From IMG/VR virus record IMGVR_UViG_3300028048_000050, positions 19,494-83,493 of that record: a DNA stretch of 64,000 bases; one strand, written 5' to 3'. Below the pieces are notes generated by a model, which saw only the letters and a program-made list of their open reading frames with translations, was not told the origin of the DNA and made no database searches. The first letter of the stretch is position 1; each line of letters starts with the position of its first letter. Origin of the DNA: a virus. Taxonomy: Duplodnaviria; Heunggongvirae; Uroviricota; Caudoviricetes. Shown one piece after another: positions 9,220 through 63,678 of the stretch. Both the position numbers and the translations under genes were made by a program.

Positions 9220-9461
9220 ATTTTACGTGAATTGTATCTTTTTTACACTTAGGGCATTTCATAGGCACAAAAAAAGGTGGTCATTTCTGATCACCTACAA
9301 GATTTATAAATTTACGTTCACCTTTAAAATTCGTATACCATAATACAGTATGTTTTCCTCCTATATAATCTGTATAAGAGTCAATCCATGGATGTGTATA
9401 AGTTATCACAGCCCATAAAATAAGTAAAATTATCCAAACCATAATATTTAGTTTTAGTTAT

Positions 9462-9540
9462 GTGCGACCACTGGGAATCGAACCCAGGTCTTCGGATTAG
9501 AATGTTATATTTACCTAGTCATTTATAATACATTTATCAA
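9462..9540 (-). tRNA. tRNA-like 3' fragment (T-arm CTGGG-TTCGATT-CCCAG plus acceptor 3' strand; no matching 5' strand found)
   Basis: The reverse complement of gtgcgaccactgggaatcgaaccc shows a T-arm. No pairing 5' acceptor strand lies within 150 nt. Confidence 0.25.
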
Positions 9541-10597
9541 AGGAAAAATCATCTAAGTAATGTACTCCTTTTTGTTGATTATTTGAAGGAGGAGTTACTC
9601 TAACAGTCAAAGATTTTCTGCTTCCTATCTCTTCTATAGGGATTAATATACTTTTATTTAATGGTTGTATATAATAAGCAATATAATCTACATCATTTTC
9701 GTATGTAGTATAATGCTTATTCGTAGTATGATTAGTACTACTAGCACAAGGACATACAATAGAATTATTTTCAGTTACTTGTGCACAATATTTTATCTAT
9801 ATTTTGTTTAATTTACCATTAAACTCTGCTATTAAATCATATCTAGCTGTATCACCAAATGGTAATGAGCACTATACTCCTCTTTTAACAAATTCAGCTA
9901 ATATAACAGCTTCTCCAACATTTCCTTTTTCTTTTGAAATCATATTACATAAACATAATAAATACATGAGGTGCTTCCACACGGTACTGACCCGTATTCC
10001 CGAAATTAAAAGTTTCGTGCATCACCTTAATGCTTTGGAAGCTAAATTATCTATCACGGGCTTTACCCCTAAGCTATGGACGCAACAAGAAGAGAAGATA
10101 TACTTCTCTTTAATCTTAATGGATACTTATAGTATCAATTAATAAAGAATCAATAGAATCTGTAATTTCAACAGAATCAATTGAAATAGAATCAGACACT
10201 TCTGATTGCTTAGTAGAATTACCTCCACAAGCAAACATTAACATCATTGCTGCTAATATAAACAAAATTTTCTTCATTTTCTCTCAAATTTTAAATAAAA
10301 ATAATCATCTATTAAATAAATGGAAGTAATCCAGCATTAATTGCAGGACCATACATCTCCATAACACCCTCCATATAAGCGTGTCCAACTCTTTTAATGA
10401 AATTTTTTACTTTTCTAGCCATAATTTTATTACAAATTTAAAGTTTATAATTTAATTATCTAATTCAATTTAAATATATCATTTTAATCTAAAAATCAAA
10501 TGTGTACGAACACTTCTTGACATAGATCAATTGATATAAATCAAGTGAACTAATCTATAAACATTTAAGTTATGTAATATCATTATTTTAGGTTTTA

Positions 10598-13126: not shown

Positions 13127-13128
13127 AG

Positions 13129-13202
13129 CACTCCGGGTACGAATCGAACATACGCTTTCTTGATTTGGAGTCAAGTTACACTTCCAATTATGCTACCGAA
13201 GC
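13129..13202 (-). tRNA. tRNA-Trp (CCA)
   Basis: Anticodon arm CTTGA-CTCCAAA-TCAAG. T-arm GTATG-TTCGATT-CGTAC. Confidence 0.55.
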
Positions 13203-14191: not shown

Positions 14192-14288
14192 AAAAGGAGC
14201 TAACTCGTAGCTCCAATAATTAAAATTTAAACTATGCAAAAAATCAATTTACATGCCAGTTTCCCAACTAGCTCACAAAATGAAATAG

Positions 14289-14364
14289 TAGCGTAGACAA
14301 GACTCGAACTTGCACAGACTTCATCCCAAATGAAGGCGGATACCTATTACCGTTATACTACGCT
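14289..14364 (-). tRNA. tRNA-Pro (UGG)
   Basis: Acceptor AGCGTAG/CTACGCT. Anticodon arm CTTCA-TTTGGGA-TGAAG. Confidence 0.5.
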
Positions 14365-14602: not shown

Positions 14603-14724
14603 ATATGCTAGGACTTCCTCTACCTAGCTTTGCAGATTTTCCAATTTTGGCTGGAAGGTTTACCTACACTTATGCAGTAGGTCGCACGCAGGTTCTGCTT
14701 AACCTTACCCGAAAAGGATTATAG

Positions 14725-14797
14725 TGCTCGTAGAGGGATTCAAACCCCCGGCACACTGTTTTGAGGACAGCTGTTCTGATCGCTGAACTATACGAGC
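14725..14797 (-). tRNA. tRNA with anticodon UCA (opal/UGA-reading; suppressor- or Sec-like; C33 instead of U33)
   Basis: Canonical 73-nt cloverleaf: acceptor GCTCGTA/TACGAGC, D-stem GTTC/GAAC, anticodon arm GCTGT-CCTCAAA-ACAGT, T-arm GGGGG-TTTGAAT-CCCTC. Confidence 0.5.
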
Positions 14798-14841
14798 AAA
14801 AACCCTCTCACTAGGAGAGGGAAAAATTCAAATTATGAAAG

Positions 14842-15216
14842 TTACTTTATGAGTTGTAACTTTTTAAAAAGTTTATCATTATTCAAAACTGCTAGAGCAG
14901 TGATTTGATTATTCAAATCCGGTTCTTTAAATTCTGTATAATCGACTTCGAGAATATCTAATTTATCTTTCCATTTATTTATATCTACTGATAAATATAT
15001 TAAATAACTATTATTCCAGGTTTGTTTAGGATGATTAAGTAACCATTGAGCTACTACATGACCACCTTGAACACAACCATAAATAGAATTTAACTCTTTA
15101 TTAATCAGAACATACAGCCTACTCTCCGTAGTGGATGTAGTAGTCTTCGACTTTCTTTTGAAAAGCTTTCTTAGAATATTCATCGGGTAATGCTTTATAG
15201 GATTTCTTAATATCAT
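14842..15216 (-). CDS. hypothetical protein
   Basis: 124-aa ORF. Confidence 0.35.
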   Translation of the reverse strand: MILRNPIKHYPMNILRKLFKRKSKTTTSTTESRLYVLINKELNSIYGCVQGGHVVAQWLLNHPKQTWNNSYLIYLSVDINKWKDKLDILEVDYTEFKEPDLNNQITALAVLNNDKLFKKLQLIK

Positions 15217-15563: not shown

Positions 15564-16142
15564 TTAATTAAACTTTCTATTTTTAAATCTTTTAACAATA
15601 TTTCTAGATGGAAGCTGTCCGCCCTGTTTCATCCATCTTTTCTATAAAGATAAAGCAAGTTTACCAATATTTGTTCCTTTATTAATTTTAATATTAGCTC
15701 CAGGAATAATATATCCTTCTGGAACGATATTTTTAGCATAAGATATAGGCTAACTTCTATCAATATAATAATATTCTCCTGTAGAATGATTTTGTCTCAT
15801 CCAATATTTTTTTCCATCTCTTCCAGTATATTCAATAGCACCCATTGGAACATTATATACAACATTATATTGAACCTTAGATTGAGGTTTTATTGTTTTT
15901 TTATTTTTTGATTTATTTAAAGATCCTGTTATAATAGGTTCTTTAACAGTATTTTCTGTTCCTCCTATTTTATTTCCCATAATTCTATCATTTCCACGAA
16001 TTTCATTAGAAGTAGGATTATTTCTTTCCCAACCTAAATGCTTTGGAGAATTATCTGTTGGTAATAGTGCAGACATTTCATTCATGTTATCCACAAATGA
16101 TTCATATGCAGAATCGTTTCCGGCTGCCTTAGAATTATACAT
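15564..16142 (-). CDS. hypothetical protein with two in-frame TAG codons (candidate TAG read-through; hexapeptide-repeat-like C-terminal extension)
   Basis: The 130-aa ORF ends at a TAG at 15750-15752. Hand translation continues in frame as PISYAKNIVPEGYIIPGANIKINKGTNIGKLALSL-TAG-KRWMKQGGQLPSRNIVKRFKNRKFN-TAA. Confidence 0.35.
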
Positions 16143-17041
16143 TCTTGTTACCCCATTAGCATCCGTCCAATTAAAATATCTCTATTTTTTATTACGAGCA
16201 TCATTCCACGCCTATTTAAATGATATTCCGTTCTAAGCCTTTAATAGTTTTTTACCCTATTTAAATCTCTATACAGGGTTTCTTGAAATTAATTTGTTCA
16301 TCTTAAATAAATTTTAACGTTAAAATAAAGAATTATCTACTTTAACTACTAATTTACTTATAAATGTTAAAATTTCAAAATTTTAATCTTCACATAAAGA
16401 TTCTATAAATTTCTTTACTCTTGGTCCTAATCTTCCCCATTTATTTATCTTAACAACAATAATATCAGGAATTAGTTCGTCTTCAGATTTTAAAGAACTA
16501 AATAATTCAACACCTTCTTTAAAATATTGTTCTAAAGAACGTATTTCTAATATTTCAATACTCTTCATATTCCTATATGTTTTTTACACGATTCTATATA
16601 ATAATTTTTTATTGTTTTGTATTCTCCATCATAATGTTTCCACTCAATTAGATGTTTTATCCATATTCTGTCTAATTTAGATGGATGTTTCTTTTTTAAC
16701 ACTCTTAATTTCATATTGTTAATTGTTTAAATTAAACTGGAGGTAGTCTCCAGTTAAATACTTGTGCATAAATTCCAGTCATGCCTTTGACTCTTCTCAA
16801 TTTTGTTAAGAGTTGCCCCAATCACCGATCGATTTAGTAATGATAGGCCAGTTTTCACTAGCCGGGACTAAAACCCTATTTTGTAATTATTACCAGGTTG
16901 GTCGGACACAACCTTATATAATTTTTCCATCAACAAATACAATGTTATGTGGAAAATCATATAATAAACTGAGAATATCATCATTATCATTTAATTGATA
17001 GTTATTAGGAACATTTACTTCTATTTGTAATTTTACTGTTT

Positions 17042-21847: not shown

Positions 21848-22275
21848 AACAAATTTAATTCTTTAAGTTTGAGTATCATTTCATAACAAGCATCAACAAA
21901 ATGCTCATACCTATTAGTTTCTATATTTTCAAATTCCCTGTAAGGATCAGCATATACAAGCTGGTACACATCGTCCTCTTTATTCATTTGCAAGTATGTT
22001 GAATAACCATCATCATCACACACTTCATAATGAAGTTGTTCTAGCAATGCTGCAAGGCTCCAAGCAGGAATAATATTTAAATATTTATTATTATAATCAG
22101 AGTCTTCATAAGGTATAGCCTTTATAGCTGGCAAATCAGGATTTTCTAAAATCCAAATCATATCCGCACTTTCAAGTGGCAGTATCTCTGCCAACTTCTT
22201 ACTCTGAGAAATGTCTGTATAACTCTTAATTGTTGCCATAATATTAATATGATCTACGTTTAAAATATTTATCAA
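21844..22275 (-). CDS. hypothetical protein (paralog of 41289..41609)
   Basis: The segments KSYTDISQSKKLAEILPLESADM and WSLAALLEQL are shared with the 41289..41609 ORF. Confidence 0.45.
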   Translation of the reverse strand: MINILNVDHINIMATIKSYTDISQSKKLAEILPLESADMIWILENPDLPAIKAIPYEDSDYNNKYLNIIPAWSLAALLEQLHYEVCDDDGYSTYLQMNKEDDVYQLVYADPYREFENIETNRYEHFVDACYEMILKLKELNLL

Positions 22276-22519
22276 TATATCCTTTTAATTCTTCTTCTGT
22301 AAATAAAGCCTCATCATTAATTCTATGTTGAGTATTAAACTTAGCATCGGTAGTTGTTGCTAAATATACAATCTTATTATTTTGAATTGGATTATTTTTT
22401 CCAAACCTCTCAATACTGATTTCAATTCTGTCAATGACAAGATTATGTATTTCTCCATCAACGAATCCAAATACTGAATCTCCAATATCGAACTTTGTTT
22501 TTACATTAATTATTGCCAT
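22244..22519 (-). CDS. hypothetical protein
   Basis: 91-aa ORF. Confidence 0.3.
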   Translation of the reverse strand: MAIINVKTKFDIGDSVFGFVDGEIHNLVIDRIEISIERFGKNNPIQNNKIVYLATTTDAKFNTQHRINDEALFTEEELKGYIDKYFKRRSY

Positions 22520-22525
22520 AGTTAT

Positions 22526-22957
22526 TCAAATTAAATTTTCTAAACAATACTTTATAGCTTCTTCACAAGCTGTTTCATATTTATCATAGAATATTTCGCA
22601 ATCACCTACACCATCATAATTAGAATCAAATATTTGCCAGATAAAATGTATTGTTTTCTCTACCTCACTATATGTTGGAGAAAGGTCAATATAAATATGA
22701 TGTACTTCTCTCAGCCACTTCATAACCACTGCTTGAGAGGGGCAATAACATTTAGGTTCAGGCACTCCTACTGGATATGAAGATATTGTTCCTGCTTTTA
22801 CAAGTTTGGTTTCTAATACCATTCTTTGAATTTCATACTCATCTTCATAGTCCTCTTCATTATATACTAATGAATGATATATATCATATTCTTGAGGAAA
22901 TCCTTTCTTTTTCAATAGTTTTGCTGTCTCAAAACTAACGTAATCTTCCGTAACCAT
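22526..22957 (-). CDS. hypothetical protein
   Basis: 143-aa ORF. Confidence 0.4.
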   Translation of the reverse strand: MVTEDYVSFETAKLLKKKGFPQEYDIYHSLVYNEEDYEDEYEIQRMVLETKLVKAGTISSYPVGVPEPKCYCPSQAVVMKWLREVHHIYIDLSPTYSEVEKTIHFIWQIFDSNYDGVGDCEIFYDKYETACEEAIKYCLENLI

Positions 22958-24880: not shown

Positions 24881-24911
24881 AAATCTATTAAATTACAAAG
24901 ACATACGTCGT

Positions 24912-24984
24912 AGTTCCATCCAGATTCGGACTGGAGATCTTCACTTTGTAGGAGTGACGTGTTTGACCAGCTACACCATGGAAC
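24912..24984 (-). tRNA. tRNA-Val (UAC), with C33
   Basis: Acceptor GTTCCAT/ATGGAAC. D-stem GTGT/ACAC. Anticodon arm TCACT-CCTACAA-AGTGA. T-arm TCCAG-TCCGAAT-CTGGA. Confidence 0.5.
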
Positions 24985-25003
24985 TATAAAAGAGATACTT
25001 TGG

Positions 25004-25089: not shown

Positions 25090-25135
25090 TGAGTATCTCG
25101 TTGTGGAGTCAGAGGGAGTTGAACCCTCGTCCAAA
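25090..25135 (-). tRNA. tRNA 3'-half-like fragment (T-arm GAGGG-TTCAACT-CCCTC plus TGACTCC); no partner 5' half found
   Basis: Reverse complement of ggagtcagagggagttgaaccctc. Confidence 0.2.
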
Positions 25136-25436
25136 TAGAGTTTATTCTATAAGAATTATACAAGCTTCTGTGTATTTTTACTAATCAGTCAATTAGAAGG
25201 ACCAACACTTCCTTGTTTTAAGACTTTAAAAGAGATCTTTGCTAATGTCTTGCTTGAAACTTTTAATAACTGAGTAAGTTTCCAACTCAGGCAGCCATTA
25301 ATTCTTTAGAATTAAAAGCTACAATTTTAATGTTTAATAAGTCGCCTTTTATTCTTTTATAGGTCTCTCCCTATTGTCAGTGCTTGTTCTTATTACCTTC
25401 ATCTATTGTCTATTTTCCTTTTGACCCCAAGTATTG

Positions 25437-25784: not shown

Positions 25785-25857
25785 GTGGACCCACTGGTAG
25801 TCGAAACCAGATTCTCAGTGTGCAGAACTGAAGTAATAGCCGTTATACTATGAGCCC
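25785..25857 (-). tRNA. tRNA-Ala (UGC), with C33
   Basis: Anticodon arm TCAGT-TCTGCAC-ACTGA (perfect). T-arm CTGGT-TTCGACT-ACCAG. Confidence 0.5.
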
Positions 25858-26246: not shown

Positions 26247-26882
26247 TTATGCTGGTTCAGGCATATATTTCCAAATATAACCAAAAGCTTCTTGTTGTAT
26301 TCCATTACAACATCTTGTTATACCTACATGTGCTCCAGAGTTTTGTGTAATGTTATTTTCCTATAACCATTTCTAAGCTTCTCTAGAACCATAAAAAATT
26401 TGAATAAAATTACCAGCTAAATCATATTGAGCTATTAATTTAGAGTGTGCGTTACGGAGTTTTATTCCATGAGCTTTTAATACTTTGCTAATAGTTTCTT
26501 TAATACACCCCAATTTTTTAGAAATCTATTCTCTTGTATACCCTAATCTAGCTAATTCTATTATTTCATTGTGATCATACAATATTTTTCCGTCACCACC
26601 TTTAGTAGCATTATATCCGTTATGACCATAAGTCTATAATTCGTTTATCCAATAAACCTCCCTTTCAGATAATTTAGAATCATCTTCTATGTATTCAATT
26701 TCTTCTATCTTAAAATTTTCTATACCATATTTATTCATGGCATCATATAGAGGACGTTTTTCACATCTACTTCTCTAATAATCGTTTTGATGTTCCCTCC
26801 ATCTTTCATCTAAACTATTTATAGTTTTTCCTATATACCTTTTACTATTAATTAAGTTAGTAATACAATAAATATATCCCAT
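26247..26882 (-). CDS. GIY-YIG homing endonuclease with four in-frame TAG codons
   Basis: Hand translation of the minus strand starting at the ATG at 26882 gives MGYIYCITNLINSKRYIGKTINSLDERWREHQNDY-TAG-..., which is the classic GIY-YIG motif. It continues about 212 codons to a TAA. The ORF track splits it because of the TAGs. Confidence 0.6.
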
Positions 26883-30707: not shown

Positions 30708-30782
30708 GAAGAAAGATTTTCAGTCTTTTGCGTTTACCATTCCGCCACATTTCCAATCGGAAAAGAAGGGATTCGAACCCCT
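30708..30782 (-). tRNA. candidate circularly permuted tRNA-Phe(GAA)-like gene: T-arm plus acceptor 3' strand (30758-30782) sit directly upstream of acceptor 5' strand, D-arm and anticodon arm (30708-30754)
   Basis: Sense order: AGGGG-TTCGAAT-CCCTT CTTTTCC G ATT GGAAATG TG GCGG-AATGGTAAA-CGC A AAAGA-CTGAAAA-TCTTT. The 3' strand pairs 6 of 7 with the downstream 5' strand. No T-arm follows the anticodon arm. Confidence 0.3.
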
Positions 30783-30863
30783 ATTTCATTCATACGAATG
30801 AGATTGTAAGTATCTTATATTACTAATACGTTAGAAAGTTTTCTAAAAAAGGTTACTAAATGA

Positions 30864-30943
30864 TTACGTCAAATTACAAATTTGATGCTCTACCATTGAG
30901 CGATTCTGGCAAAAATGGAGCCCGAACTAGGAATCGAACCTAG
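30864..30943 (-). tRNA. candidate circularly permuted tRNA-Thr(UGU) gene: 3' half including an encoded CCA (30911-30943) lies upstream of the 5' half (30864-30910)
   Basis: Sense: CTAGG-TTCGATT-CCTAG TTCGGGC T CCA TTTTT GCCAGAA TC GCTC-AATGGTA-GAGC A TCAAA-TTTGTAA-TTTGA CGTAA. The reassembled 76-nt cloverleaf is canonical with a 6 of 7 acceptor stem. Confidence 0.35.
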
Positions 30944-31001
30944 AATGTATATATATTATTGTAAGTAACCTATTCACTTATGAAACGAAACTAAAACAGA
31001 T

Positions 31002-33549: not shown

Positions 33550-33625
33550 TGAAGGGTAAAGGAATCGAACCTCTGTCCTCTATGCCGAAGCAGTCGAATA
33601 ATCCTAACCACTAGACGAACCCTTC
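33550..33625 (-). tRNA. tRNA-like gene with a non-canonical anticodon region (a UUCG-type hairpin instead of a 7-nt loop)
   Basis: Acceptor GAAGGGT/ACCCTTC. T-arm AGAGG-TTCGATT-CCTTT. Confidence 0.3.
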
Positions 33626-34101: not shown

Positions 34102-34211
34102 CGGCGAGGGTGGGAGTCGAACCCACTTTTTCAAATTTGACATATTTGCGTTAATAAATTTGATGTTGTAAGTAACTAAACAGATACTCATTTCCGTTTA
34201 ACTACCTCGCC
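34102..34211 (-). tRNA. 110-nt tRNA-Asp(GUC)-like gene with a family insertion between the D region and the anticodon arm
   Basis: Acceptor GGCGAGG/CCTCGCC. Anticodon arm CAAAT-ATGTCAA-ATTTG. T-arm GTGGG-TTCGACT-CCCAC. The insertion contains GAGTATCTGTTTAGTTACTTACAAC. Confidence 0.4.
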
Positions 34212-35353: not shown

Positions 35354-35403
35354 TTATAATATTATAAGTATCTTTAAAGACATTAAGATGAGTAAAGTAA
35401 TAG

Positions 35404-43317: not shown

Positions 43318-43330
43318 GTTAGAAGACAAA

Positions 43331-52891: not shown

Positions 52892-52907
52892 TAAGTAACT
52901 AGAGATT

Positions 52908-52995
52908 GCTCTGTGGTGTAATGGTTTAGCACAGCGGACTCTAAATCCGTAGCCCTCTGAAGGCGTAAGTGTGGGTTCGAATCCTACCAGGGCAA
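52908..52995 (+). tRNA. amber suppressor tRNA, anticodon CUA, class II (long variable arm; closest in arm sequences to this window's own tRNA-Leu(UAA))
   Basis: Acceptor TGCTCTG/CAGGGCA. D-arm GTG-TAATGGTTTAG-CAC. Anticodon arm GCGGA-CTCTAAA-TCCGT. Variable arm AGCCCTCTGAAGGCGTAA. T-arm GTGGG-TTCGAAT-CCTAC. Confidence 0.6.
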
Positions 52996-53196
52996 CAACA
53001 TTAATACAATTTTAGAATGGATACAAAATTATTTAAAGATTTATATCAAGCAAATATTGATGAAATTAAAGCTATAGAACAATTATCTATAGAACATAAT
53101 ATGTTAGATAATGGATATTACTTAAACTGGAAAGATAATTTAAATAAACTATCTATAGATTTAGATAGAGAATAATAATTAAATTTTAATGGGTGT

Positions 53197-54050: not shown

Positions 54051-54728
54051 ATGAATTTAAATTATTTTAACAGTGTGTGGAGAATGATTAACAGAATACA
54101 TCCAGAAACAAGGAGTATAATTATTATTTTACTATTTGGTTGGATTCTTTATTCTCAGATAACTGGAGTAACTGGTCAACAAATACATGACAGGTTTGAA
54201 CAAGAGATTGTTAGTAATAAAAAAGCTGAACAATACTCTATGGAAACCGGAGTTGAAATAAACCAGTAGGTCCAAGAAATAGCAGAAATAGATAAGGACG
54301 CTTTTGATGTATTACTTTTAAATTATCATAATAATACTCAAAGTTTGCAAGGTTATAAATATTTGTATTTATCTTGTCTCACAGAAGCTCCAAGATCATT
54401 AGATACTCCTACTTTACAAAAGTAGTGGAATAAATTAGATTATATATATTATGCAGATGAATTAGCTAAACTTCATAGACAAAGCTTTGTTTCTTTCTCT
54501 GATATAGAACAAATGGGATTGTAGTTACCTAAAATGTATAGATTAGTAAAAGCTAGTGATGCAAAAGCAATATCTTTCTTTACAATTGAAGGACATGATA
54601 ATCCAATAGGTTTAATTGTAGTATTTTATAGAGAGCCAAAGGTTTATGATAAACTTTATGCAGGGAGAATTCTTCCACACATTTAGAAACTAGCTTTGTT
54701 ATTAGACTATGAAAAAGCATAGAAATGA
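54051..54728 (+). CDS. hypothetical membrane protein with five in-frame TAG codons (holin-like position upstream of the endolysin)
   Basis: N-terminal transmembrane segment IIIILLFGWILYSQITGVTG. The frame stays open through TAGs to the TGA at 54726 and overlaps the amidase start as ATGA. Confidence 0.4.
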
Positions 54729-55339
54729 TTACAATTATTTTAGGTACAGCTCATTAGAAAAGCATCTAGGGTAAAAGTTCTCCAGATGGAAAATTTAAAG
54801 AATATAAATATTCTAGAGAAATATGCAAGGCTGTATGTGATATTCTACAAAGTATGGGTTATAGAACTATAATTGACATTGAAGATGACGACCTAGGACT
54901 ATCCCAATCTAGAGAATTATCACTAAGATGTAGTATTGTTAATGAATTAGTGAAACAGTATAAAAATTGTATATATGTTTCAATACATGTGAACGCAGCT
55001 GCTTCAGATGGTAAGTGGCATAATGCAACAGGTTGGGAAGTTTATACATCGGTTGGAAAAACAAAATCAGATGAACTTGCAACCTGTTTATATAATGCAG
55101 CAAAGTATAATGCAGAAAATAAGAAAATGCGTACCGATTACTCAGACGGAGATCCAGATAAAGAAGCTCATTTATATGTTCTTAAACATACTAATTGTCC
55201 TGCGGTATTAACCGAGAACTTCTTTTAGGATAACCAAAAAGATGTAGATTATTTAACTAGTGATGAAGGTTTTCATGCAATAGTTAGGCTTCATGTTGAA
55301 GGAATATTAAATTATATAGTAATAGAAGATAAATCTTAA
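54725..55339 (+). CDS. N-acetylmuramoyl-L-alanine amidase (Amidase_3 family endolysin) containing three in-frame TAG codons
   Basis: Hand translation gives MITIILGTAH-TAG-KAS-TAG-GKSSPDG...CIYVSIHVNAAASDGKWHNATGWEVYTS...NCPAVLTENFF-TAG-DNQKD.... This matches the Amidase_3 motifs SIHANA, GxEVYY and PAVLvElgFlsNpeD. The ORF track sees only 54854..55228. Confidence 0.65.
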
Positions 55340-58387: not shown

Positions 58388-58963
58388 ATGAATATATGGG
58401 ATTATAATTAGAAAACTGGAAGAGCACAATTATTAACTGCTGATTTAGTTTTAATTGATGAATTTAAAAAATTATTAGAACCTTCCAGAAATAAATGTAA
58501 TGAGGATCCTTCTGGACTAGAACACATTAGAGCTGATAGAGAGTTTACTTATATATATTTAGCAATAGATTGGAAATCTCCATATGCTAATTATAGCAAT
58601 TAGGAAAAACATGAAGCTGCTTTAAAAGATGCTCATATTTCAGAAGAAGAATGGAATAACCCTGAATTTCGTGCTGCTTGTAGAAAGTATGTATCAATTC
58701 AAGATTCCAATAGATATGTAAGATTACTTCAAGCTGCTTAGGAGGTAACTGATAAGATTATTGATTATTTCCATAATGTGGATTTACAAGAACAAGATGA
58801 ACAAGGTAAATATCTTGTTAAAGTTAAAGATGTTCAAGCTGCTATGAAAGAGGCTGCTGATCAAATTGAAACTTTGAAACAAATTGAATCTCTTGTTAAG
58901 AAAGAAGTTATGGAGCAAAGTCAAATACGTGGTGGAGCTGTTGAAGGATTTATGCCTGATTAA
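58388..58963 (+). CDS. hypothetical protein with three in-frame TAGs (possible small terminase subunit, by position only)
   Basis: MNIWDYN-TAG-KTGRAQLLTADL...ANYSN-TAG-EKHEAALKD...LQAA-TAG-EVTDKII... then the ORF at 58778..58963. Confidence 0.4.
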
Positions 58964-61239
58964 TGGAGGAAATTAAAAAGAAAAGAGGTCGTCCACGTAA
59001 GAATCCTATACCAGAAGTTCCTGAGGAAGTTTAGTCTATAATTACTGAGGTTCAACAAAAACAAGAGGAACTTCAACAGCAAATAGAAGAAATAAAGCCT
59101 TAGGTTGTAGAACACAAAGAAGGTGAATGGGATGTCAAAATAGGAGACCCGATACCTTACTTTGATAAAAGACTTTCCTATGAATTAACTGGATATAGAC
59201 CTATTACAGAAACAGAAGGATTAGATTTTGATCCTTCTTGGTTTACTGAAGCTAGAGAAATATTCTTAAAGACAGAACAATATTGTTCTTATTATCCAGG
59301 CTCAAAACTTTATAGAGATTTCTGGAATGAAGAATATAGAAGATGTAAGGAAGGAATGACAGTTAATGGTTATACTATTACTGGATTTAACTATTACTTT
59401 CTTAATTATTATCAATTACCTAATACAGAACAAGATGTAGCCGGTGATAGCCGTTCTATTATATTTCCAAGATTCTTTGTATATCAATACGAATTCTTTC
59501 ATTACTTTGAATTATGTAGAAAGTTAAGAAAGAATATGACTGTAATGAAAAACAGAGGATGTGGATTTTCTGAGATACATGCTTCTATATTTGATAATTT
59601 CTTTAACTGTTTTAAAAATAGTATATGTCTTCTTACTGCTTTCGATGATAACTATGTTAAAAAAACTCTTGATAAAATTAATGCAGGAATAACTTTTACT
59701 GATGATAATACTCAAGGAGGAATGTTAAAACTTAGACAAGTTATTAATACAGCAACTAAGAAAAGAGCTTCTCACTATAAAGTAGTAAATGGTCAAAAAA
59801 TTGAAACAGGTTTCATGTCCCAAATTGAAGGAATTGTTGTAGATAAGGATAGAAAGATGAGAGGTGACCGTGTAGGTTTCTTATTTCTTGAAGAATCAGG
59901 TTCTAATCCTATACTTGAACGTTCCTTTATTAAAGCAGAAGAACTTGTAACTGTTGGTGGTAATAAAATTGGTATTATAGCAGCAGTAGGAACAGGTGGT
60001 GATGCCGGTCCTAATCTTGAAGGTTTAAGAAAAGTATATTATAATCCTAAAATGTTCCAAGTGCTTCCATTTAAACATAATTATACAGAAGATGGAGATT
60101 GGGTTGAAACTGCTTATTTTATACCTGCATATATTTCAATGAATAACTCAAAATTTGTTGGAAGTCGTGGTGAATATCTCATGGAAAAACAAAGAGAACA
60201 TTATGAACAAAGACGTGCAGATATAACTGATCCTAAAACTTTATTAGACCATAAAGCAGAGCAATGTTTCACAGCTGAAGAAGCCTTTGCAGCGGAAGGT
60301 GTAAATAAATTTAATAAACTTAAAATAGCTGAACAAATTATAGCTATTAGAATTAAAAAACAAGCTCCTCCTATTCAAAGAGGATATATGGAGTTTGTAT
60401 ATTCTGGTCCAGAAAGAAAAAGAGAAAATATTATCGGAGTTAGATTTAAACCTAATCCGAATGGGCCTGTTAGAATATTAGAAGAACCTTTATGGGAAGA
60501 CGGAAGTCCTATAATCCAAAATCTTTATGTAGCAGGAATTGACGGTATTGATATTGGACAAGCAGAAACTTCTAAAGAAACTAGAGATCCTTCTAAATTT
60601 TGTACTATGATAAAACGTAGAGTACATGGAATGAAGGAACCTATGTATGTGGCATATTATTTAGATAGACCTAATGATATTAGAGAAGCATACAAACAAA
60701 CAATGGCTTTATTATGGTATTATCAAGCCAAAGCTAATATAGAAGCAACTCGTTTGTCTGTTCTTACATACGCTCGTGATAATAAGTTTGCACATTTCTT
60801 TATGAAACGTCCTAGAGCTTGTTATGGAGGAGACGAAAGAAGAAGAACTAATGGACAATACGGTACTACAGCTACTACAGCCATGATTGAACATGGCACT
60901 GATTTAGTTGCTTCGTATGTAGAAGATTACTGTCATAATATATGGTTTATAGAATTTTTAGAATAGTTAAATCTTTATACTGATGAAAATAAAGGTAAAT
61001 TTGATATGGTTGCAGCGTGTCAAATGGCAGAAGTTGGAGATGAAGAGTTAAGTGATATTATTCCAAGAGAATATAAACCAGTTTCTAAGGAATTTAAAGA
61101 TATAGGATATTACACCGACGAAAATGGACATAAAAAATTTGGTGTAATACCAAAACAAAATGAAAACTCTGTTAGAGGACATATAAATACAGGATATGTC
61201 GAGGGTTATAATATAACAAGTAATTCAAGATATAGATGA
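58963..61239 (+). CDS. terminase large subunit-like protein (about 758 codons, three in-frame TAGs)
   Basis: The ATG at 58963 overlaps the upstream TAA. The N-terminus is MEEIKKKRGRPRKNPIPEVPEEV-TAG-..., with a second TAG at 59101. The body is the ORF at 59356..60966 (Walker-like VMKNRGCGFSE and LLTAFDD, plus an RNase-H-like nuclease motif LYVAGIDGIDIGQAETSKETRDPS). A TAG at 60964 joins it in frame to 61006..61239, which ends at a TGA. Confidence 0.5.
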
Positions 61240-61535
61240 ATGATATGGAAAAAGCCATTTTAGATATGATAGAGTGTAAATACAAATGTAAATATACTGG
61301 ACATATTAAAGTGACTAAATTAGGGAAGGGTGGGACTGGATATAAAGTTGTATTAGACTTTGACAATCTAGACAAACCTATATTACAAATATCTGCAGAT
61401 TTAAATGCAGAAGATTTTTTAAAATTTGTTGAACAAGAACTCGTCTCTAGACAATTACATAGAGTAAAATTCTTTAGGGGAGTTAAAATTTATCCGGAAG
61501 ATGAAGAAAGAAGAACTTGTTAGCAAAACTAATTT
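61236..61535 (+). CDS. small hypothetical protein (terminal TAG followed by Q-N-TAA)
   Basis: The ORF at 61236..61523 plus a TAG-readthrough of two codons. Confidence 0.35.
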
Positions 61536-63678
61536 AGCTATTTCTGAACTTGTTTAGGAAAAGACAGCTATATAGAAAGCATATAACTATTATAACTGTA
61601 AACGAGATAAGGAATAGTTTAAATACTTAGAAGAGAACTTTGGTATTGGGTAGCCAACAGCGGTTGAGTTTATTCCTTTAATCAGGAAACATATAGACGC
61701 TTTAGTAGGAGAATATTTAGATGTTCCAATTCTTCCAAAGGTTTCTTGTAAAGATACTGAAACTATTAATAATATATTTAGAGAGAAACAAGTAAAGATT
61801 GCTACAGAATGTTATAATCTCCTACAAAATAATCTCAAAAATAATCTCTTACGAATACTAGGTAGCAAAGATATGTAGGATCTAAATATAAAAGAATAGT
61901 TGGATAAACTTATAGAAGATATTAATGAAAACTTTATTTCGGAATATGAAATAGCTGGATAGAATGTTATAGAATATATAATTCAATCTAGAAATATTGA
62001 TTTAGTAACTAAATTAAAACAATTATTTATTGATTTATTAGTTTCTGGATTTACTTTTTATAGAGTTCTTCCTTCTTCTTCTGGACATAATATAAACATT
62101 TAGTGTTTAAATCCATTAGATGTTTTTCCAGATTTAAATTATGATTCTCCTTATATTAATGAATCATATAGAATAGTAGTTAGAAGTTTCTTAACTCGTA
62201 ACTAGATTCTTAGTAAATATGGAAAGGATTTATCTAAAGAAGACATTTCTAAAATAGAAGAAATGTGGACAGACTCTTTAGAAACTACTGGTTCTTATTT
62301 TGTAAGAAGTTGTAACCCAGATGGTACTCCTGCAACTGATGGTATAAGAGCTGGTGAAGAAGTTACTCCAGGTTTTCCTGAATATAGTTATTATAAAAGA
62401 GATCTTATTCCTGTATATGAAGTTGAATGGATCGAAACAGATAAGAAATTTGTAGAACAAAGATATTCTACTGTAAGAATTGGTTCTGAAATTTATATAC
62501 TAAAAGGAATAGATGAAAATGTAGTAAGAACTAAAGATGCACCAAATAAAGCAACACTTAGTGTTAATGGTGTATGGTTTAATAATAGAGGTAGAGAACC
62601 TTTCTCTATGGTTCAAAAATGTATGGTACTTCAAGACCGTTATGACCTATTACATTTTTATAGAGATAATTTAATAGCTCAATCTGGTTCTGTTGGTGAT
62701 TTTATTAATTTACCTACTTTACCAACTATTCTAGGAGATGATTTATCAGAAAGATTAATGAAGTGGAAAGCTTATAAGAAACAAGGTATGGCTTTAATTG
62801 ATACTTCTCAAGAAGGTCAAATAGGAACAGGTCAAGCTCCTTTAACTACTATATATAATGGGTATGACGATACTGTTAAAGTTCAAGCTATTCAAGCTAT
62901 TCAATTAGCTATTGATTCTGTAGAGCAAACAACTTCTTCAATCACTGGAGTATTTAGAGAAAGATTAAACGGAATATAGCAACGTGATGCTGTAACTAAT
63001 ATCCAAACAGGTATTAATAATTCATTTATAGTAACTAAACAATGGCATTATCAAATGGATTTAATAACAAGAGAAATTTTATTAGATTCTTTAAATTGTG
63101 CTAAAATAGTTTACAAGGACGGATTAACTGGAACATTAATATTAGGTAATAAGTTACAAAAAATATTTACTGCTTTACCAAAATATTTTACAGTTACAGA
63201 TCACGATATACATATAATTACTTCATCAGAAGTAGTAAAAGAAATGGAACAAATTAAGGCTGTTGTTCCAGAATTTATAAAGGGAGGAATTGTTTCTGCT
63301 GATATATTAATGGATATTATGACTGCTAAGAGTTTATCAGAAATGAAACTAAAAGTTAATAAAGCTATTAAGAAATAGAAAGCAGAAAATAATTAGATAC
63401 AACAACTTACATAGTAGGTTGAAGAATTACAGAATAATTTACAGCAAGCTCAACAACAACTTCAACAAGCATAGAGTAAAGTTGAATCTCTTAATGAAGC
63501 TAAACTTCAAATAGAAAGAGAAAAGAATCAAATGCAATTCTAGCTTGATGATTATAAGAATAAGACTGATAGAACATTTAAGGAAAGTCAAGCTGAAAAT
63601 GATACTAAACGTACTGAAATTGAGCTTATGTAGTTATATGATGGAAATCCTTATAATGATGAAGTTAAAAACGTATGA
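61501..63678 (+). CDS. portal-like large structural protein (about 725 codons with about 17 in-frame TAGs; the call is by position and size only)
   Basis: One frame runs from the ATG at 61501 (MKKEELVSKTNLAISELV-TAG-EKTAI...) through the ORFs at 62263..62979 and 63055..63378 and a Gln-rich C-terminal coiled-coil to the TGA at 63676. The only stops in the frame are TAGs. Confidence 0.45.

What the first reader, a model, noticed from the sequence alone, without database searches (positions are those of the whole stretch)
14725..14797. Canonical 73-nt tRNA with anticodon UCA (UGA-reading), although TGA appears to terminate the recoded genes
The cloverleaf is textbook apart from C33, and its anticodon stem and loop (GCTGT-CCTCAAA-ACAGT) give anticodon UCA. 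The D-arm and acceptor resemble the window's tRNA-Arg(UCU). A bona fide tRNA-Trp(CCA) exists separately at 13129-13202. However, the terminase-like and portal-like genes end in TGA, and the membrane-protein gene's TGA overlaps the amidase ATG. This looks paradoxical unless suppression is weak, timed, or directed at host mRNAs.
Basis: seen in the sequence. Interest (0 to 1): 0.7.

Follow-up and report, generated by a model that had tools for sequence, protein, structure and literature searches.

The report
Unused-looking UGA suppressor tRNA in phage
A large crAss-like phage that reads the stop codon TAG as glutamine also carries a well-conserved tRNA for the stop codon TGA, which the phage still uses as a stop; this tRNA always sits beside a small peptidyl-tRNA-hydrolase-like gene, a pairing found in many phages.

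Summary
A 73-nt cloverleaf tRNA with anticodon UCA and C33 lies at 14725-14797 on the minus strand. The window is part of a ~180-kb crAss-like phage with about 38 tRNAs and a tmRNA. Its late genes are TAG-recoded to Gln and are served by a separate Gln-like tRNA(CUA). TGA is a true stop: 24 of 81 ORFs end in it, 16 of them as ATGA overlaps. No in-frame TGA survived testing in the window or in the late genes of four relatives. The paradox is therefore real, but the literature already tabulates it for Zeta crAss-like phages (Lera; ctkor1).

What I add:
- The tRNA is under structural selection; 10 of 21 pairs show compensatory changes.
- It is neither a Sec tRNA nor the Trp-type (G73) tRNA that truly TGA-recoded relatives use.
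- It belongs to a lineage of suppressor tRNAs, often with C33, encoded immediately downstream of a PTH2-fold hydrolase-like gene. In a motif-selected sample, 32 of 61 family members have a suppressor within 200 nt and 48 of 61 within 1.5 kb.
- TGA-recoded relatives show the mirror arrangement, with a CUA tRNA in the cassette.

Its function is inferred, not shown. The most likely role is low-level UGA read-through acting in trans, probably on host translation.

The parts
14725..14797 (-). tRNA with anticodon UCA (opal-suppressor type). C32-C33 in the loop, G1-C72, A73, 5-nt variable loop, no encoded CCA.
   Evidence: ARAGORN; Rfam 61 bits; cloverleaf MFE; covariation in 8 homologues, with 10 of 21 pairs compensatory and 95.8% of cells paired.
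14803..14821 (-). Terminator-like hairpin CCCTCTCCTAGTGAGAGGG followed by a T-run that abuts tRNA position 1. It lies between the hydrolase-like gene and the tRNA.
   Evidence: Terminator scan; fold. A comparable hairpin occurs at the same place in L107, L127, L138, L139, L144 and L147. A similar hairpin precedes tRNA-Thr at 14196-14214, so it is not specific to this tRNA.
14842..15183 (-). PTH2-fold peptidyl-tRNA-hydrolase-like gene (113 aa from MNIL...). The longer ORF to 15246 contains one in-frame TAG. It is the conserved upstream partner of the suppressor tRNA.
   Evidence: phrog_3668 'hydrolase' E 4.5e-9; family profile vs PDB hits Pth2 2zv3/24bt at E 3e-4; AF2 pLDDT 91; Foldseek top-10 hits all in the Pth2 family, prob 1.0, TM about 0.6. 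There was no Pfam hit at E<=0.01.
52907..52996 (+). Gln-like tRNA(CUA): U1-A72, a D-arm like the window's tRNA-Gln(UUG), and an insertion in the variable region. It sits at the head of the late plus-strand block and is the cognate suppressor for the phage's TAG->Gln recoding.
   Evidence: ARAGORN; Rfam 58.8 bits; sequence comparison. Homologues lie upstream of TerL in L002-L066.
13128..13202 (-). Ordinary tRNA-Trp(CCA) with G73.
58963..61239 (+). Terminase large subunit. It has 3 in-frame TAG and ends in a TGA that overlaps the next ATG. The TGA stop is at the same place in five relatives.
   Evidence: phrog_6681 E 2e-67.
61501..63678 (+). Portal protein. It has 17 in-frame TAG and ends in TGA. 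The TGA end is at the equivalent position in L003, L006 and L023, but not in L007, whose portal ORF has no TGA at all.
   Evidence: phrog_6547 E 4e-49. TAG columns align mainly with Gln.
54051..55339 (+). Membrane protein gene (54051-54728, 5 TAG, TGA stop) overlapping the endolysin/amidase gene (54725-55339, 3 TAG) by ATGA.
   Evidence: phrog_435 endolysin E 2e-42.
25101..25428 (-). Phage tmRNA (context: translation-rescue toolkit). Its tag ORF GDLLNIKIVAFNSKELMAA ends in TGA.
   Evidence: Rfam tmRNA 32.7 bits, E 2e-9, below the gathering score; 77% identical to the ARAGORN-called tmRNA of relative L107. The G3.U70 pair and the tag ORF were read from the alignment.

Best explanation
The feature is a genuine, selectively maintained phage tRNA gene with anticodon UCA.

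What is shown:
- It belongs to a lineage of phage nonsense-suppressor tRNAs (G1-C72, A73, often C32-C33). These are encoded directly downstream of a small PTH2-fold peptidyl-tRNA-hydrolase-like gene.
- In most phages that slot holds a CUA tRNA. In this clade of rumen crAss-like ~180-kb phages it holds UCA.
- The phage recodes TAG to Gln in late genes, using a different, Gln-derived tRNA(CUA) at the head of the late block.
- The phage keeps TGA as an ordinary stop. The tRNA(UCA) is therefore non-cognate to the phage's own code and is not needed to read the phage ORFs that I could inspect.

What is inferred:
- The tRNA is transcribed with the early minus-strand block and charged by a host synthetase. 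The amino acid is unknown; the tRNA is not the Trp-type.
- It competes with RF2 at UGA at modest efficiency. C33 replaces the U-turn nucleotide, which in my recollection of E. coli suppressor work lowers efficiency.
- The result would be read-through of UGA-terminated mRNAs in the infected cell, chiefly host ones, as part of host takeover or anti-defence.
- The co-encoded PTH2-like enzyme and the phage tmRNA would recycle the peptidyl-tRNA and stalled ribosomes that such interference creates.
- Phage genes would tolerate this because the extensions are short or read-through is partial.
For: Reality and selection:
- tRNA calls.
- Syntenic homologues in L080, L107/L126, L127 and L128-L137.
- 10 of 21 pairs have compensatory changes, with 0 of 500 shuffles reaching the observed score.

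The phage is crAss-like and TAG->Gln recoded:
-.
- TAG columns align with Q (121) or TAG (120) in portal.

TGA is a stop:
- 24 of 81 ORFs end in TGA, 16 of them in ATGA overlaps. This is close to the 1:2 TGA:TAA ratio expected from the G/A composition.
- There is no excess of back-up stops, p = 0.6.
- The TerL TGA stop is at the same place in all five relatives examined; the portal TGA end in L003, L006 and L023.
- Long late ORFs in relatives that carry the UCA cassette have up to 27 TAG and 0 TGA.

Cassette:
- PTH2 fold.
- 10 of 10 looked-up places have a suppressor tRNA right after the gene.
- In a motif-selected IMG/VR sample, 32 of 61 have a suppressor within 200 nt and 48 of 61 within 1.5 kb. 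The first downstream tRNA is a suppressor in 32 of 33 cases, binomial p 3e-31.

Lineage:
- The anticodon arm AGCTGTCC-NNN-AAACAGT is identical to that of a cassette CUA tRNA (L184).
- The odd D-loop and T-loop are shared with cassette CUA tRNAs L200 and L225.
- C33 is found in 18 of 55 suppressors against 15 of 490 other tRNAs, p 2.5e-11.

Mirror case:
- In L204, L208 and L253 the family's conserved Trp is encoded by TGA.
- In L208 and L253 a Trp-type tRNA(UCA) with A1-U72 and G73 lies upstream; none was found near L204.
- In all three the cassette tRNA is CUA. This matches Lera in PMC12386605.

The host-directed idea was proposed for crAss-like phages in PMC7886860 and PMC12386605.
Against: - No experiment or expression data were available. 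Charging, amino acid and suppression efficiency are all unknown.
- Only 64 kb of a ~179-kb genome was seen, so in-frame TGA could exist elsewhere.
- A host-directed suppressor would also hit the 30% of phage genes that end in TGA. The genome shows no compensating adaptation such as back-up stops or TGA avoidance, which fits 'weak or irrelevant' as well as 'useful'.
- One close homologue (L107) has U33, so C33 is not obligatory.
- C33 also occurs in the window's tRNA-Val and tRNA-Ala.
- 13 of 61 PTH2-like genes have no detectable suppressor nearby.
- Distant homologues in cultured standard-code phages have none.
- The link between the hydrolase and the tRNA is by position only.
Confidence: 0.42

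Rival explanations
1. Code-switch capacitor or compatibility device. Carrying both suppressors is an intermediate or standing state. It lets this phage lineage tolerate, acquire or express genes, introns and homing endonucleases from TGA-recoded relatives, and eventually switch codes. The tRNA would be kept for evolvability rather than for an immediate effect on the host.
For: - Zeta crAss-like phages switch between TAG, TGA and standard code at short phylogenetic distances, and suppressor presence does not match recoding (PMC7886860; PMC12386605).
- Borges et al. saw a TGA suppressor acquired by a standard-code relative.
- The same cassette slot holds CUA in TGA-recoded phages and UCA in this TAG-recoded clade.
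- The window contains mobile endonuclease genes: GIY-YIG at 26247-26882 and PD-(D/E)XK at 9497-9967.
Against: - Evolvability is a weak selective force.
- The tRNA is conserved with compensatory changes across phages whose TerL is only 47% identical, with no TGA codons accumulating.
- PMC12386605 makes the same objection for diverged phages that keep 'unused' suppressors.
- The endonuclease genes seen here carry in-frame TAG, not TGA.
Confidence: 0.2
2. Cognate decoder after all. Some genes in the roughly 115 kb of the genome outside the window, or a few programmed read-through sites, contain in-frame TGA that this tRNA reads.
For: - Only about one third of the genome was inspected.
- Two same-frame gene pairs separated by a single TGA exist: 22526-22957 with 22244-22519, and 9281-9442 with a 41-aa zinc-ribbon ORF.
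Against: - All 18 homologous matches to the 143-aa protein end at residue 142-143.
- The apparent 'W' in the fused homologue P0270 is a TGA translated by a code-4 gene call.
- The sequence after that TGA is a conserved intergenic element. A 2-nt indel in L152 breaks the frame, and the downstream genes differ between phages.
- More than 60 kb of late and early regions in four relatives that carry the same tRNA have no in-frame TGA.
- The tRNA lacks the Trp-type identity (A1-U72, G73) seen in the truly TGA-recoded relatives L208 and L253.
Confidence: 0.12
3. Not a working suppressor. It would be either a decaying or neutral passenger of the cassette, or an RNA with a non-decoding role. Examples of such a role are a decoy for a host anticodon nuclease, or a substrate or regulator of the PTH2-like enzyme.
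For: - C33, a D-loop without G18-G19 and a T-loop with U56 are departures from canonical elongator tRNAs.
- Phage tRNAs with altered anticodon loops that evade tRNA-targeting defences are documented (PMC10264068).
- There is no detectable use of TGA as sense.
Against: - Strong structural covariation and a strictly conserved anticodon loop CCUCAAA in 6 of 7 family sequences argue against decay.
- Homologues in L127 and L128 have canonical D- and T-loops with the same anticodon loop.
- No nuclease is known that targets a tRNA(UCA), which hosts do not have.
Confidence: 0.12
4. An extra sense-codon tRNA. Charged with Trp (or Arg), its U34 would read UGG by wobble as well as UGA, as in Mollicutes and mitochondria. 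It would serve mainly as a second tRNA-Trp.
For: - U34 can pair with G.
- tRNAscan-SE isotype models scored the Lera tRNA(UCA) as Trp or Arg (PMC12386605).
Against: - The phage already has a tRNA-Trp(CCA).
- The discriminator is A73 and the first pair is G1-C72. By contrast the phage Trp tRNAs have G73, and the Trp-type UCA tRNAs of L208 and L253 have A1-U72 and G73.
- Its position in a slot otherwise held by CUA suppressors points to stop-codon reading.
Confidence: 0.06
5. A selenocysteine tRNA, as the ARAGORN label suggests.
For: ARAGORN prints 'tRNA-SeC' for the anticodon tca.
Against: The tRNA is 73 nt, with a 7-bp acceptor stem, a 4-bp D stem and a 5-nt variable loop. Bacterial tRNA-Sec has an 8/5 acceptor/T architecture, a 6-bp D stem and a long extra arm (established knowledge). 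No in-frame TGA or SECIS-dependent genes were seen.
Confidence: 0.01

Closest known systems
'Unused' (non-cognate) suppressor tRNAs of Zeta crAss-like phages. Examples are Lera/ct1yV3 (TCA + CTA, opal recoding) and ctkor1 (187.6 kb, 32 tRNAs, 'CTA, TCA', amber recoding). Sources: PMC12386605, Table 1; mismatch first noted in PMC7886860.
   Same: - A large (~180 kb) low-GC crAss-like genome with a block of about 30 tRNAs.
- One stop codon is recoded in late genes.
- A second suppressor tRNA exists for a stop codon that the phage still uses as a stop.
- Lera also encodes an 'aminoacyl-tRNA hydrolase' in the tRNA block.
   Different: - The TerL here is less than 48% identical to anything in the annotated phage collection, and its relatives come from other metagenomes, probably rumen (my inference).
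- The papers do not report that the non-cognate suppressor sits directly behind the hydrolase-like gene.
- They also do not report its C33, or that it is a different tRNA lineage from the cognate suppressor.
Code 15 (TAG->Gln) phages with Sup-tRNA(CUA) placed at the start of the late block. Sources: Ivanova 2014; Borges et al., 10.1101/2021.08.26.457843; Mgcod, 10.1101/2022.06.29.495998; Peters et al., PMC9523058.
   Same: - The window's tRNA(CUA) at 52907-52996 lies at the 5' end of the TAG-rich plus-strand block of lysis, terminase and portal genes.
- Early genes are largely free of in-frame stops.
   Different: The finding concerns the other suppressor (UCA). It lies in the early block and has no matching sense codons.
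Trp-type tRNA(UCA) of TGA->Trp (code 4) phages. Literature examples are Jade, Agate and Lera. Examples here are L208 and L253, and the separate family in L081/L082.
   Same: The UCA anticodon, and being encoded by a phage.
   Different: - Those tRNAs carry bacterial Trp identity marks: A1-U72 or G1.U72, and G73.
- Their genomes have TGA at conserved Trp positions.
- The window tRNA has G1-C72 and A73, and its genome has no in-frame TGA.
Pth2 / PTRH2 (Bit1) peptidyl-tRNA hydrolase family of archaea and eukaryotes (PDB 2zv3, 3erj, 1wn2, 1rlk, 1q7s).
   Same: - The predicted fold of the upstream protein, with the conserved Q..H of the first helix (QGGH here).
- The size of about 95-115 aa.
   Different: - Only 8-16% identity, and no Pfam PF01981 hit.
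- The second conserved motif is F-E-P-D-L..(T) rather than the D-A-G..T that I recall for canonical Pth2.
- Activity and substrate are untested.
Theta (HDV-like) ribozymes flanking phage suppressor tRNAs (PMC10879173).
   Same: Gut Bacteroidota phages, suppressor tRNAs without encoded CCA, and a proposed role in the code switch.
   Different: - No HDV-like match was found in the Rfam E-value scan of the window.
- The 3' trailer begins CTATAATCCTTTTC, with no G near the tRNA end.
- 99.7% of theta-associated suppressors are CUA.
Opal suppressors derived from tRNA-Arg(UCU) in phage T4 (Kao and McClain 1977; my own recollection, not checked here).
   Same: A single anticodon change from UCU to UCA would give this anticodon, and A73 is shared with the phage Arg tRNAs.
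   Different: Similarity to the window's tRNA-Arg(UCU) is only 69-73% and is not better than to cassette CUA suppressors. No A20 is evident.

Membership tests
Canonical elongator tRNA | Cloverleaf with 7-bp acceptor, 4-bp D, 5-bp anticodon and 5-bp T stems and a 7-nt anticodon loop | tested here: met
   Covariation on 8 sequences: 95.8% of cells paired and 10 of 21 pairs with changes on both sides.
Canonical elongator tRNA | U33, G18-G19 in the D-loop and T54-Psi55-C56 in the T-loop | tested here: not met
   The window tRNA has C33, D-loop AGCGATCA and T-loop TTTGAAT. Homologues L127 and L128 have canonical D- and T-loops but keep C33.
tRNA-Sec (selC) | 8/5 acceptor/T architecture, 6-bp D stem, long variable arm, about 90-100 nt | tested here: not met
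   73 nt, 7/5 architecture, 4-bp D stem, 5-nt variable loop.
Genetic code 4/25 (TGA as sense) in this phage | In-frame TGA inside conserved genes, at positions where homologues have Trp or Gly | tested here: not met
   None was found in the window's 81 ORFs. The candidates were rejected. There is none in TerL, portal or other long late ORFs of relatives. As a positive control, L204, L208 and L253 have TGA at the conserved Trp of the PTH2-like protein. About two thirds of the genome was not seen.
Trp-type opal suppressor tRNA | Bacterial TrpRS identity set: G73 and A1-U72 (or a weak first pair) | tested here: not met
   The window tRNA has G1-C72 and A73. The window and relatives' tRNA-Trp(CCA) have G73, and the L208 and L253 tRNA(UCA) have A1-U72 and G73.
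Genetic code 15 (TAG->Gln) phage | In-frame TAG in hallmark late genes aligning with Gln, plus a Gln-like tRNA(CUA) | tested here: met
   Portal has 17 TAG and TerL has 3. TAG columns align with Q 121 times and TAG 120 times; the next residue is E at 19. The tRNA(CUA) at 52907-52996 has U1-A72 and a Gln-like D-arm.
crAss-like phages (Crassvirales-related, Zeta-like by size and tRNA content) | crAss-type TerL and portal; for the Zeta group, a 145-192 kb genome with many tRNAs, introns and recoding | tested here: inconclusive
   TerL matches phrog_6681 and portal matches phrog_6547. The best annotated hits are crAss-like phages at 25-47% identity. The source contig is 179,115 bp, with relatives of 163-192 kb. 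No phylogeny against named Zeta genomes could be made because they are not in the collections.
Non-cognate suppressor tRNA of a recoded phage (as in Lera and ctkor1) | A suppressor tRNA for a stop codon that the same genome uses only as a stop | tested here: met
   for the parts of the genome available.
PTH2-linked suppressor-tRNA cassette (defined here) | A suppressor tRNA gene as the first feature within about 200 nt downstream of a PTH2-like gene, on the same strand | tested here: met
   In the window the gene ends at 14842 and the tRNA starts at 14797. The same arrangement is seen in L080, L107, L127 and L128-L148 and in 32 of 61 IMG/VR family members.
Pth2 peptidyl-tRNA hydrolase family (for the partner protein) | Pth2 fold | tested here: met
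   AF2 pLDDT 91. The Foldseek top-10 hits are all Pth2 or Bit1-type, prob 1.0. Profile vs PDB gives E 3e-4.
Pth2 peptidyl-tRNA hydrolase family (for the partner protein) | Catalytic residues and peptidyl-tRNA hydrolase activity | not testable with these tools
   Invariant H42 and E87, and near-invariant Q39, W56, N58, F85, P88, D89 and T95 suggest an active site. There is no Pfam PF01981 hit and no assay.
Theta-ribozyme-associated suppressor tRNA | HDV-like ribozyme with its cleavage site within 5 nt of the tRNA 3' end | tested here: inconclusive
   There is no HDV-like hit in the Rfam E<=1 scan, and no G in the first 13 nt of the trailer. I did not run the authors' own theta descriptor.

The most novel reading that the evidence does not exclude
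The tRNA(UCA) is one form of a portable two-gene 'stop-codon read-through module' of phages. The module consists of a PTH2-fold hydrolase and a dedicated suppressor tRNA, frequently with C33, whose anticodon toggles between CUA, UCA and perhaps UUA. In at least two lineages the module targets the stop codon that the phage itself does NOT recode: UCA in this TAG-recoded clade, and CUA in TGA-recoded Lera-like phages. On this reading the module is a host- or competitor-directed translational weapon, or the long-sought trigger or safety device of the code switch. The hydrolase would act specifically on the suppressor tRNA's acylated or peptidyl form.
Probability: 0.3. Interest if true: 0.75.

Novelty: new member of a known kind. 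Interest (0 to 1): 0.5.

Why it matters
How recoded phages switch codes inside standard-code hosts is an open question. So is why many of them keep suppressor tRNAs that they appear not to use (PMC7886860, PMC12386605, Borges et al.).

This locus does not overturn anything. It is one more TAG-recoded crAss-like phage with an 'idle' opal suppressor.

It does show that the idle suppressor differs from the working one in three ways. It is a separate tRNA lineage. It is physically coupled to a conserved PTH2-like enzyme across crAss-like phages and other phages. It is enriched for the rare C33.

That gives experimenters a defined two-gene unit to express, delete and assay. It also yields a prediction that can be checked across complete genomes: the cassette anticodon versus the genome's code.

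Tried and rejected
1. Nucleotide searches of the late region and of the tRNA region against annotated phages found no match. An exact 20-mer of the anticodon arm had no match in IMG/VR.

2. In-frame TGA candidate 22526-22957|TGA|22244-22519 was rejected. All 18 homologous matches to the upstream protein stop at residue 142-143, and the downstream ORF has its own ATG.

3. In-frame TGA candidate 9281-9442|TGA|zinc-ribbon looked promising, because P0270 is a 102-aa 'fused' homologue with W at the site. It was rejected for three reasons:
   - The W is a TGA translated by a code-4 gene call.
   - The conserved stretch after the TGA is nucleotide-level intergenic conservation.
   - The frame is broken by a 2-nt indel in L152, and the downstream genes differ.

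4. A test for selection of back-up stops after TGA showed no difference from TAA-terminated genes.

5. A search for a phage RF2, an aminoacyl-tRNA synthetase or other translation factors among 40 ORFs found none.

6. An automatic TAG/TGA code call for about 100 short loci was abandoned. Antisense frames of AT-rich genes mimic TGA recoding, so I make no general claim that the cassette is always non-cognate.

7. The search for related loci with the family alignment failed because no conserved 7-10-column stretch exists. It was replaced by a degenerate DNA motif for VQGGHAVA, which samples only part of the family.

8. An acetyltransferase-like neighbour used as an anchor did not retrieve the syntenic region of the closest 183-kb relative.

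9. The Sec-tRNA reading was rejected on structure.

10. An Arg(UCU) origin can be neither supported nor excluded.

11. A literature search for a reported link between peptidyl-tRNA hydrolase and phage suppressor tRNAs found nothing in the held library. That is not proof that it is unpublished.
Full report
OBSERVATION. ARAGORN reports 14724-14797(-) with anticodon tca at position 34. Rfam's tRNA model scores 61 bits at 14725-14797(-), E 9e-11. The thermodynamic fold of the region is a clean cloverleaf. Read from the sequence, it has a 7-bp acceptor stem (G1-C72), a 4-bp D stem, a 5-bp anticodon stem GCTGT/ACAGT, the loop C32-C33-U34-C35-A36-A37-A38, a 5-nt variable loop, a 5-bp T stem, discriminator A73 and no encoded CCA. 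It departs from the textbook in three ways: C33, a D-loop without GG (AGCGATCA) and a T-loop TTTGAAT. The 'SeC' label from ARAGORN reflects only the anticodon. Its size and architecture exclude a selenocysteine tRNA.

WHAT GENOME THIS IS. The window is about 30% G+C and carries 33 ARAGORN tRNAs plus several more found only by Rfam, nearly all on the minus strand. Genes run on the minus strand up to about 51 kb and on the plus strand from about 52 kb.
- The plus-strand block encodes a membrane protein, an endolysin, an exonuclease, a crAss-type large terminase (phrog_6681, E 2e-67) and a portal (phrog_6547).
- The minus-strand block encodes helicases, RNase H, an ATPase, an SPFH protein and others.
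- The best annotated relatives of the terminase are crAss-like phages at 25-47% identity.
- IMG/VR holds closer relatives with 91-97% TerL identity, on contigs up to 183 kb.
- A protein identical to one in the window sits on a 179,115-bp JGI contig, presumably the source.
- Late genes are full of in-frame TAG: 17 in portal, 3 in TerL and 3-9 in the lysis genes.
- Where one phage has TAG, its relatives have Gln (121 cells) or TAG (120 cells) far more often than anything else.

This is therefore a TAG->Gln (code 15) phage. Its cognate suppressor is a Gln-like tRNA(CUA) with U1-A72 and a D-arm like the window's tRNA-Gln. It lies at 52907-52996(+), at the head of the late block, as described for such phages (10.1101/2022.06.29.495998).

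IS TGA EVER SENSE HERE? I found no evidence that it is.
- Of 81 ORFs of at least 60 aa on the coding strands, 57 end in TAA and 24 in TGA. Sixteen of the TGA stops are ATGA overlaps with the next start codon.
- The TGA:TAA ratio is close to the 1:2 expected from the G/A content of the coding strand.
- TGA-terminated genes are not followed by back-up stops more closely than TAA-terminated genes, p = 0.6.
- The TerL TGA end is at the same position in five relatives. The portal TGA end recurs in L003, L006 and L023 but not in L007.
- Only two places have an ORF, a single TGA and a further open stretch in the same frame.
  - For 22526-22957, all homologous matches end at residue 142-143.
  - For 9281-9442, a database homologue seemed to be a fusion with Trp at the site. 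Its DNA has TGA there as well, so the 'W' comes from a code-4 gene call. The conserved stretch after the TGA is conserved at the nucleotide level, includes the next gene's ATG and is shifted by a 2-nt indel in one homologue. The downstream genes also differ between phages. It is a conserved stop.
- In the three relatives that carry the same tRNA and for which late or neighbouring regions are available, long ORFs have up to 27 in-frame TAG and no TGA.
- The limit of this test is that about two thirds of the genome was not visible to me.

CONSERVATION OF THE tRNA. Homologous tRNA(UCA) genes sit in the same context in several other phages:
- a phage whose TerL is only 47% identical (L080/L083);
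- one at 80% TerL identity (L107/L126);
- one at 91% TerL identity (L127);
- a set of ENA and Logan contigs up to 180 kb (L128-L137).

On eight sequences, 95.8% of cells pair. Ten of 21 pairs show changes on both sides. No shuffle out of 500 reached the observed covariation, and slid registers collapse to 34-55% pairing. The anticodon loop CCUCAAA is identical in six of seven UCA sequences; one has U33. The gene is clearly under purifying selection as a tRNA.

WHAT KIND OF tRNA. It is not the Trp-type opal suppressor. The phage's own tRNA-Trp(CCA) and those of relatives have G73. The tRNA(UCA) of truly TGA-recoded relatives has A1-U72 and G73. The window tRNA has G1-C72 and A73. Its similarity to tRNA-Arg(UCU), at 69-73%, is no greater than its similarity to certain CUA suppressors of other phages. 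With those CUA suppressors it shares specific oddities:
- The entire anticodon arm AGCTGTCC-NNN-AAACAGT is shared with the CUA tRNA of L184.
- The GG-less D-loop AGCGAT(C)A and the T-loop TTTGAAT are shared with the CUA tRNAs of L200 and L225.

All of these CUA tRNAs occupy the same genomic slot described next. I conclude, by inference from sequence, that the UCA tRNA is a member of that suppressor lineage in which the anticodon has changed. The amino acid it accepts cannot be deduced.

THE PARTNER GENE AND THE CASSETTE. Immediately upstream (14842-15183, minus strand) is a small protein. It has no Pfam hit but matches phrog_3668 'hydrolase'.
- The family has 507 cluster representatives at E<=1e-3.
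- A profile of 72 members hits archaeal Pth2 structures, E 3e-4.
- The AlphaFold model is confident, pLDDT 91.
- Its ten best structural matches are all Pth2/Bit1-type peptidyl-tRNA hydrolases, prob 1.0.
- H42 and E87 are invariant, and Q39, W56, N58, F85, P88, D89 and T95 are nearly so.

In every place I could look up by protein identity (10 of 10 distinct places with DNA), the gene is followed at once by a suppressor tRNA. This is UCA in the window's clade and CUA elsewhere, including one CUA tRNA with C33 that ARAGORN missed.

I then took a sample chosen without regard to tRNAs, using a degenerate DNA motif for VQGGHAVA in IMG/VR. It gave 61 informative distinct family members:
- 32 have a suppressor tRNA as the first feature within 200 nt downstream (30 CUA, 2 UCA).
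- 13 more have one within 700 nt, and 2 within 1.5 kb.
- 1 has tRNA-Met and then CUA.
- 13 have none detected.

The first downstream tRNA is a suppressor in 32 of 33 cases, against a 10% share of suppressors among all tRNAs in those loci (binomial p 3e-31). Lak megaphages have a homologue with a tRNA(UUA) about 600 nt upstream. Distant homologues in cultured standard-code phages have no tRNA nearby. Position 33 is C in 18 of 55 distinct suppressors from these loci, against 15 of 490 other tRNAs (odds ratio 15, p 2.5e-11). C33 is not exclusive to suppressors: the window's tRNA-Val(UAC) and tRNA-Ala(UGC) have it too.

THE MIRROR CASE. In L204, L208 and L253 the conserved Trp of the PTH2-like protein is encoded by TGA, and L227 and L242 likewise carry one in-frame TGA in the PTH2-like ORF. 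A neighbouring 903-aa ORF in L208 has eight TGA and no TAG. A Trp-type tRNA(UCA) lies 660-890 nt upstream in L208, L227, L242 and L253; none was found near L204. The tRNA right behind the hydrolase-like gene is CUA. This is the arrangement published for phage Lera: opal recoding, both suppressors, no amber suppression and an 'aminoacyl-tRNA hydrolase' in the tRNA block (PMC12386605). So in two lineages with opposite recoding, the cassette tRNA reads the stop codon that the phage does not recode. I could not establish how general this is. My automatic code call on short loci was unreliable, and at least one TAG-recoded locus (L184) has a cognate CUA cassette.

HOW IT MOST LIKELY WORKS.

Shown:
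- It is a conserved tRNA with a UGA-reading anticodon.
- It is non-cognate to the phage's own recoding.
- It is physically coupled to a PTH2-fold gene.
- It lies in the early-strand block, whereas the cognate Gln-type suppressor heads the late block.
- The phage also encodes a tmRNA at 25101-25428(-).

Inferred:
- The tRNA is charged by a host enzyme and competes with RF2 at UGA, probably inefficiently. That replacing U33 weakens suppressors is my recollection of E. coli work and was not checked here.
- It would then perturb termination on UGA-ending messages in the infected cell. The hydrolase-like enzyme and the tmRNA would clear the resulting peptidyl-tRNA and stalled ribosomes.
- Host-directed read-through was proposed for crAss-like phages by Yutin et al. 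(PMC7886860) and by the Lera authors.

The weak point is that 30% of the phage's own genes end in TGA, and nothing in the genome compensates for that. Rivals are set out with probabilities in the rival-explanations section of this submission:
- a standing dual-suppressor state that eases code switching or gene exchange with TGA-recoded relatives;
- real TGA sense codons in the unseen part of the genome;
- a non-decoding or decaying RNA;
- an extra Trp/Arg tRNA.

COMPARISON AND NOVELTY. As a phenomenon this is already known. Suppressor presence and recoding disagree in the Zeta crAss-like group (PMC7886860). Table 1 of PMC12386605 lists ctkor1 (187.6 kb, 32 tRNAs, 'CTA, TCA', amber), the same combination as here. 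The locus is therefore a new member of a known kind.

I did not find the following in the held literature, and these points may be new:
- the tight coupling of a PTH2-like gene with suppressor tRNAs across crAss-like, Lak and other phages;
- the enrichment of C33 in these suppressors;
- the observation that the non-cognate suppressor is a separate lineage from the working one.

These rest on positional and sequence statistics only.

OTHER POINTS.
- A terminator-like hairpin with a T-run abuts the 5' end of the tRNA (14803-14821), and comparable hairpins occur in other cassettes. A similar one precedes tRNA-Thr, so it may be a general processing or termination signal of the array.
- No HDV-like (theta) ribozyme was detected next to the tRNA.

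Noticed in passing
window 25101-25428 (-): A phage-encoded tmRNA lies between tRNA-Ser(GCU) and tRNA-Asp. Rfam scores it 32.7 bits (below gathering) with E 2e-9. It is 77% identical to the ARAGORN-called tmRNA of relative L107. Its acceptor stem has G3.U70. The tag ORF GDLLNIKIVAFNSKELMAA ends in TGA here but in TAA in L107.
   Followed up: partly
loci L128-L260 and window; window tRNA-Val 24910-24985 and tRNA-Ala 25785-25857: C33 instead of U33 is 15-fold enriched among suppressor tRNAs of PTH2-linked loci: 18 of 55 against 15 of 490, p 2.5e-11. In an earlier set of 169 tRNAs, 11 of the 12 with C33 had U34.
   Followed up: partly
L204, L208, L227, L242, L253 (IMG/VR contigs up to 176 kb): These are TGA-recoded relatives. 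The conserved Trp of the PTH2-like protein is TGA in L204, L208 and L253, and L227 and L242 also carry an in-frame TGA. A Trp-type tRNA(UCA) with a long insertion lies 660-890 nt upstream (not found near L204). A CUA suppressor sits directly behind the gene. This mirrors the window and matches the published Lera phage.
   Followed up: partly
L153/L154 (Prevotella phages Lak-B5, Lak-A1): Lak megaphages encode a homologue of the PTH2-like protein (45-51% identity). A tRNA with anticodon UUA (ochre-suppressor type) lies about 600 nt upstream.
   Followed up: partly
window 52907-52996 (+): The Gln-like tRNA(CUA) is 90 nt long, with an insertion of roughly 15-17 nt in the variable region. The same long form occurs upstream of TerL in L023 and L066, while other relatives have a 73-nt form.
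   Followed up: no
window 35403-35480 (-): A second, low-scoring tRNA(CUA) call (Rfam 38 bits) with the unusual loop TTCTAGG lies inside the early tRNA array. It is unclear whether this is a working amber suppressor.
   Followed up: no
window 34102-34211, 35015-35129, 30758-30910 (-), also 33550-33625, 34574-34627, 9972-10042: Rfam finds tRNA matches that ARAGORN misses. Three of them are 110-153 nt long, so they contain insertions, possibly introns. tRNA-Pro(UGG) at 14289-14364 is also missed by ARAGORN.
   Followed up: no
window 30860-30969 (-) and 37677-39488 (-): There is a weak YrlA (Y RNA-like) match of 26.7 bits. About 7 kb away is a 603-aa protein matching phrog_850 'RNA-binding protein', with a vWA-like C-terminal part. 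Together they may form a Ro/Y-RNA-like pair.
   Followed up: no
window 48257-48329 (-): A sub-threshold RAGATH-1 hammerhead ribozyme match (40.5 bits against gathering 56.3, E 0.003) lies in the G+C-richer 46-51 kb stretch, where ORF calls are poor.
   Followed up: no
window 14603-14724 (-): The 122-nt spacer between tRNA(UCA) and tRNA-Ile(GAU) is G+C-rich with several complementary segments. It is not conserved in the L128-type relatives, where the next tRNA follows after 16 nt.
   Followed up: no
window 9260-9285 (-) and L149-L152: A conserved intergenic element TGA-(CC/TT)(A/G)-CCTTTTTT-GTGCCT-ATG follows a small membrane-protein gene in four phages, although the downstream gene differs. 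The database protein P0270 is a false fusion created by a code-4 gene call on a short AT-rich contig.
   Followed up: yes
protein P0144: A 5594-aa predicted protein contains 13 stretches matching the PTH2-like family. Its origin is unknown.
   Followed up: no
window 41773-43009 (-): Three tandem paralogous genes of 136-144 aa, each starting MCW..., lie next to tRNA-like sequences at 43322-43731.
   Followed up: no
window 15564-16301 (-), 26247-26882 (-), 9497-9967 (-): A few genes inside the otherwise stop-free early block carry several in-frame TAG: a 245-aa protein with 7, a GIY-YIG endonuclease with 5 and a PD-(D/E)XK endonuclease with 3. In relatives, a 780-970-aa ORF with 24-27 TAG lies just upstream of the cassette.
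   Followed up: no
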